This document shows positions 35,501 through 38,500 of a stretch of DNA of 64,000 nt, piece after piece. The number at the start of each line of letters is the position of its first letter. Positions within the stretch are counted from its first letter, which is position 1. Source of the DNA: Escherichia coli (GTDB lineage Bacteria > Pseudomonadota > Gammaproteobacteria > Enterobacterales > Enterobacteriaceae); the NCBI RefSeq assembly GCF_017348835.2, contig NZ_CP071375.1; one strand, 5' to 3'. The position numbers are program-made.

Positions 35501-38500
35501 CGATCAGTCAGGCTCGTCTTACAGTTACTACGCCGATGATATCGTTATATCCCTATATCATTAGCAATGTGCTTTATATTTTGCCGTTATCTATTATTCT
35601 TTCTTTTATTCTCTATTTCTTATGGCAGCACTGGATGTCACGGAAAATGTCGCTGGCAGAAGAAATTAAAAAAGGAATGTCATCCGGAGAATTTTCTGTG
35701 CATTATCAACCAGTGTGCGACACGACAACCAAAGCGTGTCTGGGGGTTGAAGCGTTAATGCGCTGGCAACGCGAAGATGGTAAAAATATATCTCCGGTAG
35801 TTTTTATCCGCGCTGCAGAAGAGGAAAATTTAATAATACCGTTAACTAAATATCTCTTTGAACTGATTATTCAGGATGTACAAAGCTGGAAAGTGAAAAA
35901 ACCGTTTCACCTTGGGATAAATATTGCCGCGGAACATCTTGCACATCCTGACTTTGTTGGTGATGTTTTACATATTAAAAATGCAATATCTGATAAATTT
36001 AATATTGTCCTTGAGATTACCGAACGCAATCTGGTTGAAGACACTGATCTTGCATTACAGAAAATAAATGAATTAAGGATCCATGGCTGTGAATTTGCAG
36101 TCGATGATTTTGGCACGGGATATTGTTCCCTTGGCCTTCTGCAAAAGTTGTCTGTTGATTATCTTAAAATAGATAAAAGCTTTATAGACACACTCACTAC
36201 AGCGGAAGACGAAACGCCAGTTTTAGATATTATTATTAAGCTGAGTAATCGACTCAATTTGATAACGATTGCAGAAGGTGTCAGTACTCCTCACCAGGCA
36301 GAATATCTTATTCATAATAACGTGACATTAGTTCAGGGATACTTATATGCAAAACCAATGAAAGCGACAGAGTTTTATCAGTGGTATGTAAACAGATAAA
36401 TAATTAAAAATATTGGAATGGTTTTGTATTGTTTTAAAATATAAACAAAGCAATCAGAATGCTATTAACTGGTGACAAACGCCAGGATCAACAATGCTGT
36501 TAGTGAGTAATACATATGAATCGTGGTGTCCTGCCTGTAGAGAATACGTAGTTATAATCATTTTGACGCGTAACATAATAATTAATTGAAGTGTCTGCTT
36601 TTATGAAGAAATCAGAAGTGATATTTTCAAGGATTTCATCGCTGATGTTATCATCTTTTTGTATTTTTTGGATTTTAACTGTGGTGAGATAAACGGTATC
36701 ACGGAATTTCTTGTATGTAAAACTCACATATCGGCGGATGAAGCCCATCTTTTTTCCATCTACCGTGTATGCGCCCGTGAGATACATGTTTCCTGTGTTA
36801 TTTTCAGAAATCATATTTAACGAAAAATATTGATCCATTTTTGTATGATCGGTGAAATTAATAACATGGGCATTACATGATATGTTTTGCTCTGCTGGTT
36901 CATTGGAATGATGAAACGCAATATGGCTCAGAATTGCTGCAATAAAAGCACATAAAATTATTCCCGCAAACAGAAAATATCTTTGAGTCATATGATTACT
37001 CCGCTTTATAATAGAGAGAATTGCAATTATTTGGTGATTCAGAGTTTAACATTTGACTACAGGTGAAAGCATAAAACCCGCTCATGCTATCATTTGTTGC
37101 AATGTAAACGTAAGGATGTATTTTGCAGTTGACTTCCATTTTCTGCAATTTTTCAATAATCGGCGATAGCATGTCTACGGAATTAAAGTATTTATTATCA
37201 TAGAAATAACTGCATCCTTCCTGAGTAGGGTGTTGAGCATAATTTGAGAAAGCATCTATTTTTTTTATAGTGTGGGATTTGCTTTGAAAAGCCATATCGA
37301 AAAAATAAGAAGATATATACACTATCCCCCATGCTGCAAAAAAAGAAACTATAAGCAATGTATTCTTTGTGGTAAATATACCTTTTGCAACGTGATTTTT
37401 ATTTATATTTTCAGTATGGGTGCCATTCTCTTCACTCTCAACACTTTCATTCTCATTGTGATTATTGTCGAGAACAGTTATGTTGATTTCTTCATTGATT
37501 TTGAAGCCTTTACGTGGCACCGTTCTGATAACATCATTAAATATCGTCGCTGAGCTGATTTCACGAAAGGAACGCCTTATCATCGATATATTTTGATATA
37601 AAGTGTTGGTTGCGACTTCGGCACTGCTATCGCTCCAGACTTTTTCAAAGAATTGATTGTGTGACACGACACTATAAGCGTTATCTAAAAGTAACTTTAA
37701 GCATTTTCCCGCAGGATAAGTGAGTATCACTTCCTCTGATGTAAGGAGTGATGTTAACTTATTAGATGATGAGTTGAATCTTACTTCATCATTTATAATG
37801 TAGATCATTACATTTTATACCTTAGTTGTGTATTACAAATCCAGTATTACTCAGAAAATAAAGGCAAGAACATTAAGTGCACTATAGTATAATTTCCTAA
37901 AAATGCAAATGTGAATTATCTGATTTTTAAGAATAATCTTGATTTAATTGAAATTCTTAAACGATGTATATTTCTATTAAATGCTTTCTGCAGTGATGTG
38001 AATTAGGGGTTTTCTGCATGTACTGATAGAAACTGCGTATCCCCGTTATAGGGAAAGAACGGGTCGCATCCTCCACCCAAGACACTAACCGTGTGATTGG
38101 TAGTTCCCTGCTGTGCACTTCTGGTGAAATAGAAGAAGCTCTATGCGCCGACCGATGCTGTCTTTTATCCGATTATTTGCCAGTGACACCTTGATATGAG
38201 GTTATGTCTATTATTGCTAGGAGGTAATATATGCTTATGTTATTATCCAAAGCGCTAATAGTAATTTAGATAAAGATTATAAATCAGCAAGCAAATCCAG
38301 CCTGTTTTTTTGTGCGTACTGCATAACATCTATGATGACTATATTATTACGTGATACATCACTACTTAAATGTATATAAGATTTGATGTTTATTATTCAT
38401 GCTGAGTTTTAACGTTTATATTTTTTTATTGATATCTAAAAATTACTTAAATTATCCCTTAAATATTACTTACTCATAAGGAGCAATGTGTGATATGAGC

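What the first reader, a model, noticed from the sequence alone, without database searches (positions are those of the whole stretch)
36500..37808. ToxR/ToxS-like two-gene membrane signalling module in the accessory island
The upstream gene encodes a one-component regulator with a cytoplasmic OmpR/PhoB-type winged-helix DNA-binding domain, a single TM helix and a Cys-containing periplasmic sensor tail (the ToxR/CadC architecture, with no receiver domain). The downstream gene, 4 nt away, encodes a membrane-anchored periplasmic protein of ToxS-like size and topology. The pair is AT-rich and sits between a c-di-GMP phosphodiesterase and a fimbrial operon, so it may couple an envelope or periplasmic cue to expression of the island's adhesins.
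Basis: partly seen in the sequence, partly recalled or inferred. Interest (0 to 1): 0.65.

Follow-up and report, generated by a model that had tools for sequence, protein, structure and literature searches.

The report
GrvA/FidL membrane regulator pair, known

Summary
Two intact minus-strand genes, 4 nt apart, lie at exactly the stated coordinates in an AT-rich stretch.

**Regulator (270 aa).** It has a Trans_reg_C winged-helix domain (E=4e-11), no receiver domain, one TM helix and a 101-aa tail with four Cys.

**Identity.** The window is E. coli chromosome, in O-island 47 between dgcT and ycdU/serX. The pair is the orthologue of O157:H7 Sakai grvA (ECs_1274, 97.8% aa) and its FidL-like neighbour (ECs_1273, 96.3%).

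**Prior work.** Kinch et al. (PNAS 2022) already described GrvA/FidL as a VtrA/VtrC–ToxR/ToxS "co-component" cassette. GrvA's role in EHEC (RcsB → GrvA ⊣ GadW/GadE → LEE) is published.

**What remains unshown.** Control of the island's own adhesins is untested. The only support is conserved gene order, and the fimbrial usher in this strain carries an internal stop.

**Verdict:** interpretation supported, already known, low interest.

The parts
36996..37808 (-). grvA orthologue: a 270-aa membrane-anchored ToxR-family transcription factor
   Evidence: ORF. 97.8% aa identity to Sakai GrvA ECs_1274 in the same gene order. 32% identity to K-12 YqeI, E=5e-40, with all four periplasmic Cys aligned.
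37500..37736 (-). OmpR/PhoB-type winged-helix DNA-binding domain (residues 25-103); no receiver domain precedes it
   Evidence: Pfam Trans_reg_C, E=4.1e-11. Best PDB sequence hits are ToxR DNA-binding domains 8b4b/8b4c/7nmb, E about 4e-7.
37302..37358 (-). single predicted transmembrane helix of GrvA (residues 151-169)
   Evidence: Highest Kyte-Doolittle 19-mer, 1.85. An equivalent segment is found in all 9 family pairs examined.
36999..37301 (-). GrvA periplasmic domain (residues 170-270) with Cys199, 228, 250 and 262
   Evidence: Four Cys with similar spacing in all 9 regulators compared. AF2 gives a beta-beta-alpha-beta-beta-beta fold at pLDDT about 90, with Cys250 and Cys262 on the last two strands.
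36500..36991 (-). fidL-like gene: a 163-aa membrane-anchored periplasmic partner
   Evidence: ORF. 96.3% aa identity to Sakai ECs_1273, annotated 'FidL-like protein'. 23% identity to YqeJ, E=8e-19. A 96%-identical database cluster carries PF27292 and PF15941.
36920..36976 (-). FidL N-terminal signal-anchor helix (residues 6-24; AF2 helix 3-29)
   Evidence: KD 2.51. AF2 helix 3-29.
36506..36883 (-). FidL eight-stranded lipocalin-like barrel (residues 37-162), with Cys39 on the first strand and Cys160 on the last
36992..37002 (-). gene junction: GGAG ribosome-binding site inside the last grvA codons, TAA stop, then a 4-nt spacer; implies co-transcription and translational coupling
   Evidence: Read directly from the sequence. 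In 7 of 8 distant relatives the two genes overlap by 1-8 nt.
37886..37945 (-). candidate grvA promoter. It has -35 TTCACA / -10 TATACT hexamers and two tandem TCA(A)GAT(T/A)ATTC motifs that fit the RcsB-box core GA-N4-TC. The block is conserved at the same distance from the ATG in a 50%-diverged orthologous locus.
   Evidence: Promoter scan. RcsAB-box-like palindrome at 37928-37941 (not enriched over chance window-wide). A 36-nt conserved block, 86% identical, about 100 nt before the ATG in both window and L007. RcsB binding to the grvA promoter is reported in PMC8565820.

Best explanation
This is the grvA-fidL operon of E. coli O-island 47, a 'co-component' transmembrane transcription regulator of the VtrA/VtrC-ToxR/ToxS superfamily.

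**Architecture.**
- GrvA is an inner-membrane protein. Its N-terminal winged-helix domain binds DNA in the cytoplasm, and its small disulfide-bonded C-terminal domain faces the periplasm.
- FidL is made from the same transcript by coupled translation. It is anchored by an N-terminal helix and folds into a disulfide-stapled lipocalin-like barrel.

**Proposed mechanism (inferred by analogy with VtrA/VtrC, ToxR/ToxS and TcpP/TcpH).**
- The GrvA periplasmic sheet docks onto the open edge of the FidL barrel to form an obligate heterodimer.
- The barrel stabilises GrvA against proteolysis, binds a hydrophobic host cue (a bile-salt- or lipid-like molecule), or does both.
- Either effect would promote GrvA oligomerisation and DNA binding.

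**Regulation (published for O157:H7, not tested here).** RcsB activates grvA transcription. GrvA lowers gadW/gadE expression, which relieves GadE repression of ler and turns on the LEE while reducing acid resistance.

**Status of each step.**
- Shown here: gene structure, domains, fold, orthology, conserved pairing and purifying selection.
- Inferred: heterodimer, ligand, and regulatory targets in this strain.
For: - **Orthology and gene order.** 97.1% nt identity to Sakai grvA plus the FidL-like gene. 97.8% and 96.3% aa identity. Gene order is identical from putA to the polyketide-type genes.
- **Domains.** Trans_reg_C, E=4e-11. ToxR DNA-binding domain is the best PDB sequence hit. TM segments and Cys pattern.
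- **Pairing.** 7 of 8 distant FidL-family loci have a Trans_reg_C gene immediately upstream, overlapping by 1-8 nt.
- **Heterodimer.** A linker-fused model of the two periplasmic domains gave pTM 0.80 with only the linker disordered. That value is hard to reach unless the two domains are confidently packed.
- **Selection.** dN/dS is 0.10 and 0.12.
- **Literature.**
  - Kinch et al. [quoted passage not shown]
  - The RcsB-GrvA-GadW/GadE-LEE pathway is summarised in PMC10877973 and PMC8565820.
  - GrvA-FidL is listed among the coTTRs in PMC13042144.
Against: - No ligand or direct DNA target of GrvA is known. The published effect on gadE is described as indirect (PMC10877973).
- I could not inspect inter-domain contacts or PAE of the fused model, so the heterodimer rests on pTM alone.
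- The GrvA periplasmic domain was not matched to VtrA or ToxR periplasmic structures, because the fused-model fold search returned only ToxS/VtrC hits.
- FidL has no detectable sequence similarity to ToxS or VtrC (5-14% identity in structural alignments).
- The tool's Pfam-A scan found no family in FidL.
- Whether this pig isolate carries the LEE was not tested, so the published output may not apply.
- One family member (L008) is an apparent orphan without a regulator.
Confidence: 0.85

Rival explanations
1. Local-target model. The cassette's primary and ancestral job is to control its own neighbours: the divergent SDR gene, the chaperone-usher fimbrial operon and perhaps the TpsA/TpsB adhesin. 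This is what the first reader proposed. The gadW/gadE/LEE effects in EHEC would then be secondary.
For: - A 50%-diverged orthologous pair, whose regulator closely matches the Pseudocitrobacter sp. RIT415 protein P0101, keeps the same adhesin-chaperone-SDR-regulator-FidL order while the other flank differs. Chaperone identity is 73% and SDR identity 82%.
- Other family members sit next to an autotransporter, a TPS haemagglutinin or fimbrial genes.
- Family precedent exists: MarT/FidL activates the neighbouring misL (PMC9214523).
- GrvA's effect on gadE is reported as indirect (PMC10877973).
Against: - No expression or binding data link GrvA to OI-47 adhesin genes in anything I could read.
- The usher of the adjacent fimbrial operon has an internal stop in this strain, while grvA-fidL stays under purifying selection.
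- Shared gene order may only reflect common descent of the block.
Confidence: 0.25
2. Chaperone-only model. FidL binds no small-molecule signal. It only protects GrvA's periplasmic domain from regulated proteolysis, as ToxS does for ToxR and TcpH for TcpP. Signal input would then come solely through transcription of the operon (RcsB, bicarbonate).
For: - Published inputs to GrvA act on its transcription through RcsB (PMC8565820, PMC10877973).
- The conserved disulfides in both periplasmic domains fit a stability or redox role.
- No ligand is known.
Against: - The fold is the lipocalin-like barrel that binds bile salts in VtrC and ToxS (PMC9214523, PMC13042144).
- The barrel residues evolve fast, about 50% identity against 73-82% for neighbouring genes in the same syntenic block. 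That fits changing ligand specificity, although it is also compatible with relaxed constraint.
Confidence: 0.3
3. One-component model. GrvA works alone as a CadC-like sensor-regulator, and the downstream gene is a functionally unrelated small membrane protein.
For: - GrvA phenotypes in the literature were obtained by manipulating grvA (PMC10877973).
- One FidL-like gene occurs without a regulator.
Against: - The pair is conserved in 7 of 8 distant loci with overlapping reading frames.
- The fused model has pTM 0.80.
- YqeI/YqeJ periplasmic domains are reported to form a complex (PMC9214523).
- GrvA's periplasmic domain is only 101 aa, and its CadC NCBIfam score is 21 bits against a cutoff of 400.
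Confidence: 0.05

Closest known systems
[not shown]
   Same: Orthologue: 97.8% and 96.3% aa identity, same lengths, same 4-nt junction, same neighbours on both sides.
   Different: There are six substitutions in each protein, including Cys155 to Ser in the GrvA TM helix and one base in the putative -35 hexamer. The host is a pig isolate with a 5.03-Mb genome, not a labelled EHEC. The adjacent usher gene is a pseudogene here and intact in Sakai.
YqeI/YqeJ (E. coli K-12 and others, ETT2 region)
   Same: Paralogous cassette with the same architecture. YqeI is 32% identical (E=5e-40) with all four periplasmic Cys aligned. YqeJ is 23% identical (E=8e-19) with both Cys aligned.
   Different: Different locus and neighbours. 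The genes overlap by 8 nt in K-12 instead of being 4 nt apart.
MarT/FidL of Salmonella SPI-3
   Same: Same family. GrvA is reported as about 30% identical to MarT (PMC10877973). The partner gives the FidL family its name. MarT/FidL activates the adjacent adhesin gene misL (PMC9214523).
   Different: Not compared by sequence here, because no Salmonella sequence was fetched. The neighbouring adhesin is an autotransporter rather than fimbriae/TPS.
ToxR/ToxS (Vibrio) and VtrA/VtrC (V. parahaemolyticus)
   Same: Same two-gene logic and same folds. The ToxR DNA-binding domain is the best PDB sequence hit for GrvA. ToxS and VtrC are the best structural matches for FidL.
   Different: There is no detectable sequence similarity between FidL and ToxS or VtrC. 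FidL-type barrels carry an N-strand/C-strand disulfide (PMC9214523). Bile-salt binding is shown for the Vibrio proteins and unknown here.
CadC (E. coli one-component pH/lysine sensor)
   Same: Membrane-anchored OmpR/PhoB-type wHTH without a receiver domain. Weak sequence similarity is confined to the DNA-binding domain.
   Different: CadC (profile length 516) is about twice GrvA's size, has a much larger periplasmic sensor and needs no lipocalin partner (my own knowledge). GrvA has a 101-aa periplasmic domain and a dedicated partner.

Membership tests
GrvA/FidL of O-island 47 (orthology) | Near-identical sequence at the same chromosomal position (between dgcT/ycdT with the EAL gene and the SDR-fimbrial-TPS-ACP genes) | tested here: met
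   97.1% nt and 97.8%/96.3% aa identity to Sakai ECs_1274/ECs_1273, with identical flanking gene order.
Co-component transmembrane transcription regulators (VtrA/VtrC-ToxR/ToxS superfamily) | Regulator with an N-terminal OmpR/PhoB winged-helix domain and no receiver domain | tested here: met
   Trans_reg_C at residues 25-103, E=4.1e-11, is the only Pfam domain. ToxR DNA-binding domain E=3.8e-7.
Co-component transmembrane transcription regulators (VtrA/VtrC-ToxR/ToxS superfamily) | Single TM helix followed by a small C-terminal periplasmic domain with conserved Cys | tested here: met
   Hydropathy peak at 151-169, a 101-aa tail and four Cys with similar spacing in 9 of 9 family regulators. Topology itself is inferred, not measured.
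Co-component transmembrane transcription regulators (VtrA/VtrC-ToxR/ToxS superfamily) | Adjacent or overlapping downstream gene for an N-terminally anchored periplasmic partner | tested here: met
   4-nt spacer with an internal Shine-Dalgarno sequence. Anchor helix at residues 3-29. Pairing kept in 7 of 8 distant loci.
Co-component transmembrane transcription regulators (VtrA/VtrC-ToxR/ToxS superfamily) | Partner folds as a VtrC/ToxS-type lipocalin-like beta-barrel | tested here: met
   [not shown]
Co-component transmembrane transcription regulators (VtrA/VtrC-ToxR/ToxS superfamily) | Periplasmic domains form a heterodimer | tested here: inconclusive
   The linker-fused AF2 model has pTM 0.80 with both domains at pLDDT about 90 or higher, but contacts and PAE were not available. 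A complex model and the YqeI/YqeJ dimer are reported in PMC9214523.
Co-component transmembrane transcription regulators (VtrA/VtrC-ToxR/ToxS superfamily) | Barrel binds a bile salt or lipid that switches the regulator | not testable with these tools
   No ligand is known for FidL-type proteins (PMC9214523 discussion).
ToxR/ToxS proper (Vibrio orthologues) | Sequence-level homology of both proteins to ToxR and ToxS | tested here: not met
   Only the DNA-binding domain matches ToxR. FidL has no phmmer hit to ToxS at E<=10 and 5-14% identity in structural alignments. The relationship is at superfamily and fold level only.
CadC-type one-component sensors | Full-length match to CadC, with a large periplasmic sensor and no partner | tested here: not met
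   NCBIfam CadC scores 21.2 bits against a cutoff of 400, over the DNA-binding domain only. The periplasmic tail is 101 aa.
Pfam FidL_like (PF15941) / YqeJ_C (PF27292) | Significant match to the family HMM | tested here: inconclusive
   The direct Pfam-A scan returned no family. Precomputed annotations give PF27292 and PF15941 on the 96%-identical cluster P0001 and PF27292 on all relatives. phmmer links it to 86 family clusters. The scan library probably predates PF27292.

The most novel reading that the evidence does not exclude
GrvA-FidL may be first of all a cis-acting switch for the adhesin block it travels with: the SDR gene, the chaperone-usher fimbriae and possibly TpsA/TpsB. It would respond to a gut lipid bound in the FidL barrel. 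The tandem TCAGATAATTC motifs conserved upstream of grvA could be part of that circuit, either autoregulatory or RcsB-dependent. The cassette is also present in apparently non-EHEC E. coli, which would mean its core role is independent of the LEE.
Probability: 0.2. Interest if true: 0.4.

Novelty: already known. Interest (0 to 1): 0.15.

Why it matters
GrvA is an established virulence regulator of EHEC. It links the Rcs envelope-stress and bicarbonate signal to acid resistance and type III secretion. Its partner FidL is a predicted lipid-sensing barrel of the ToxS/VtrC type.

Finding the cassette here adds no new biology beyond three modest points:
- The pair occurs, intact and under purifying selection, in E. 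coli backgrounds that do not look like the O157/O55/O145 lineage.
- Its linkage to an SDR gene and a fimbrial operon is conserved in another genus.
- The signal sensed and the direct DNA target are still unknown, so the cassette remains a reasonable experimental target.

Tried and rejected
- **Family scans of FidL.** Pfam-A gave no hit. NCBIfam gave only a spurious 13-bit Rho match. A PDB sequence search gave one chance hit at E=0.11. Identification therefore needed fold prediction and RefSeq naming.
- **GrvA periplasmic fold.** The fold search with the fused GrvA-FidL model was meant to recover VtrA or ToxR periplasmic domains. It returned only ToxS/VtrC chains, so that fold was not independently matched.
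- **Primary GrvA paper.** Morgan et al. 2016 (PMC4719443) is not held. GrvA function is cited from two reviews and from Kinch et al.
- **RcsAB-box search.** The consensus search found the site upstream of grvA, but the number of window-wide matches equals chance (5 found, 5.2 expected). The site is supported only by its position and by conservation in L007.
- **Terminator.** No intrinsic terminator was found after fidL.
- **Other readings considered and rejected.** A two-component response regulator is ruled out by the absence of a receiver domain. A CadC orthologue is ruled out by score and size. Decaying pseudogenes are ruled out by intact ORFs and dN/dS of about 0.1.
- **Not attempted.** A check of whether strain PE164 carries the LEE, and a full serotype breakdown of the 410 positive genomes.
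Full report
**Observation.** The two ORFs exist exactly where stated. A 270-aa ORF lies at 36996-37808(-) and a 163-aa ORF at 36500-36991(-). The sequence shows GCG GAG TAA tcat ATG, which is a 4-nt spacer with a GGAG ribosome-binding site inside the last codons of the upstream gene. The stretch is AT-rich, with GC 0.33-0.34 against about 0.5 in the neighbouring core genes.

**The regulator.** Pfam finds one domain, Trans_reg_C at residues 25-103 (E=4.1e-11), and no receiver domain. 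NCBIfam gives only weak sub-threshold matches over the same domain to VanR, PhoB, CadC and HilA models. The best sequence matches among solved structures are the V. cholerae ToxR DNA-binding domains (E about 4e-7), ahead of PhoB-family regulators and CadC. Hydropathy gives one strong segment at residues 151-169. The 101-aa tail after it contains Cys199, 228, 250 and 262.

**The partner.** Residues 6-24 form a strongly hydrophobic segment after a short basic N-terminus, and Cys39 and Cys160 lie in the remaining part. Pfam-A, NCBIfam and a PDB sequence search find nothing credible. A full phmmer search of 1.84 billion cluster representatives finds only 86 related clusters, most of them 150-180 aa long. 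In an alignment of 71 of them, C39 is invariant and G67, G73, R87, F128, P156 and C160 are conserved in at least 90%.

**What it is.** The window is E. coli chromosome.
- It is 100% identical to strain PE164, a pig isolate from Nanjing.
- The pair lies in the accessory island between dgcT (ycdT) and ycdU/tRNA-Ser.
- The local gene order is pgaABCD, dgcT, CSS-type EAL phosphodiesterase, fidL-like, wHTH regulator, KduD-like SDR, chaperone-usher fimbrial operon, TpsA/TpsB and ACP/ketosynthase genes.
- This is O-island 47 of O157:H7. In Sakai the same two genes, at 97.1% nt identity and in identical context, are annotated grvA (ECs_1274) and FidL-like protein (ECs_1273).
- Amino-acid identity is 97.8% and 96.3% to Sakai, and 99.3% and 99.4% to O145 RM9872.
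- dN/dS against Sakai is 0.10 for grvA and 0.12 for fidL, similar to the neighbouring EAL and SDR genes (0.08 each). Both genes are therefore maintained by selection.

**What is already published.**
- Kinch et al. (PNAS 2022, PMC9214523) defined "co-component signal transduction systems" starting from VtrA/VtrC. They showed that ToxR/ToxS is a distant homologue.
- They describe the conserved disulfide between the first and last barrel strands of FidL-type proteins, and a disulfide between the last two strands of the regulator's periplasmic domain.
- They modelled the GrvA-FidL complex and reported that YqeI/YqeJ periplasmic domains form a dimer.
- A 2026 preprint lists GrvA-FidL among the "coTTRs" (PMC13042144).
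- Two reviews summarise GrvA function. It lies on OI-47 (z1531) and is a ToxR-family protein about 30% identical to MarT. It is activated by RcsB binding to its promoter and is responsive to bicarbonate. It indirectly represses gadW/gadE, which activates ler and the LEE and lowers acid resistance (PMC10877973 and PMC8565820).
- The primary paper (Morgan et al. 2016) was not available to me.

**Independent checks of the family logic.**
- K-12 YqeI is 32% identical to the window regulator (E=5e-40), and all four periplasmic Cys align. YqeJ is 23% identical (E=8e-19), and both Cys align.
- I looked up the genomic context of eight distant FidL-family representatives. Seven have a 257-288-aa Trans_reg_C gene immediately upstream, overlapping by 1-8 nt. 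In one of the seven the regulator is truncated by the contig end. The eighth (L008) is an apparent orphan.
- All nine regulators examined have one hydrophobic segment and four periplasmic Cys with similar spacing. All partners have the Cys pair.
- I built a single-chain construct of GrvA(170-270), a 30-residue Gly/Ser linker and FidL(28-163). The alignment held nine paired rows plus unpaired homologues. AlphaFold2 gave pLDDT 85.8 and pTM 0.80, with only the linker and the first eight residues disordered.
- Two domains of 100 and 135 residues placed arbitrarily would not reach that pTM, so I read it as support for a defined complex. I could not inspect contacts.
- In that model the GrvA periplasmic domain is beta-beta-alpha-beta-beta-beta. 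Cys250 and Cys262 sit on the last two strands, which agrees with the published description.

**Mechanism.** The most likely mechanism is the one proposed for the superfamily. GrvA and FidL are co-translated and inserted into the inner membrane, and their periplasmic domains form a heterodimer. The FidL barrel then stabilises GrvA, binds a hydrophobic cue, or does both, and this controls GrvA oligomerisation and DNA binding. Nothing here or in the literature I could read identifies the ligand or a direct DNA target.

Control of the island's adhesins is not shown. There is some circumstantial support:
- A 50%-diverged orthologous pair keeps the adhesin-chaperone-SDR-regulator-FidL order while the other flank is unrelated. 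Its regulator closely matches that of Pseudocitrobacter sp. RIT415.
- Other family members neighbour an autotransporter, a TPS haemagglutinin or c-di-GMP enzymes.
- MarT/FidL is known to activate the adjacent misL gene.

Against it, the usher of the adjacent fimbrial operon is interrupted in this strain. No published GrvA target that I could find lies on OI-47.

**Promoter.** About 100 nt upstream of the ATG lies a 36-nt block (37910-37945). It is the only part of the 677-bp upstream region conserved with the 50%-diverged locus, and it sits at the same distance from the start codon in both. It contains two tandem TCA(A)GAT(T/A)ATTC motifs that fit the RcsB-box core GA-N4-TC. One of them overlaps a promoter-like -35/-10 pair. 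The RcsAB consensus match is not enriched over chance in the window as a whole. This reading is therefore an inference that fits the reported RcsB binding.

**Verdict.** Observation confirmed and interpretation supported. The feature is already known as the GrvA/FidL co-component regulator of O-island 47. Interest is low.

Noticed in passing
window 41459-43981 (-): The usher gene of the chaperone-usher fimbrial operon next to grvA is split by an internal stop into ORFs of 609 aa and 216 aa. RefSeq marks it as a pseudogene in PE164, and it is intact in O157 Sakai (ECs_1278). The fimbriae are probably not assembled in this strain.
   Followed up: partly
L007 1-4492 compared with window 36500-41443: In another genus the same block is conserved: fimbrial adhesin (444 aa), chaperone (229 aa), SDR, regulator and FidL. 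The locus's regulator closely matches the Pseudocitrobacter sp. RIT415 protein P0101. The chaperone is 73% and the SDR 82% identical, but GrvA and FidL are only 49-50% identical. The cassette therefore evolves much faster than its syntenic neighbours, in line with the 'fast-evolving' label.
   Followed up: partly
L008 4001-6009; L012 1-3477; L013 247-3222; window 33210-36991: FidL/YqeJ-family genes repeatedly sit next to c-di-GMP enzymes. These are a CSS-motif EAL gene in L008 and L012, a GGDEF gene in L012, and an EAL gene separated from the cassette by one EcpR-like gene in L013. In the window dgcT and a CSS-type EAL gene end 100 nt from fidL. L008 is an apparent orphan FidL-like gene with no regulator upstream. 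Whether this reflects a functional link or shared ancestry of the region is open.
   Followed up: no
(410 of 5426 complete E. coli genomes): Reviews describe OI-47 and grvA as exclusive to the O157:H7, O55:H7 and O145:H28 lineage. The pair is also present at 97-100% identity in pig (PE164, F2_81), baboon (PapRG-06-5, PapM-32-1), human (N3, TUM13936), chicken-carcass and environmental isolates. Several of these genomes are only 4.8-5.0 Mb. Serotype and LEE status of these strains were not checked.
   Followed up: no
window 37910-37945 (-): Two tandem TCA(A)GAT(T/A)ATTC motifs lie about 21 nt apart and about 100 nt upstream of the grvA start. This is the only block of the upstream region conserved with the 50%-diverged orthologous locus. 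They are candidate RcsB or autoregulatory sites.
   Followed up: partly
window 24525-25249 (+): A tandem array of 7.2 copies of a 100-bp unit (96% matches) lies between efeB and phoH. Six of the units score as Rfam naRNA4 (CssrE), a REP-derived nucleoid-associated RNA. One more copy lies at 134-212 (-).
   Followed up: no
window 26318-26511 (-): A strong Rfam match to Yersinia sRNA 251 (Ysr251, 188 bits) lies antisense to the 3' end of phoH.
   Followed up: no
window 37344-37346 (codon 155 of grvA): The GrvA TM helix has Ser155 in this strain, where both O157 Sakai and O145 RM9872 have Cys.
   Followed up: no
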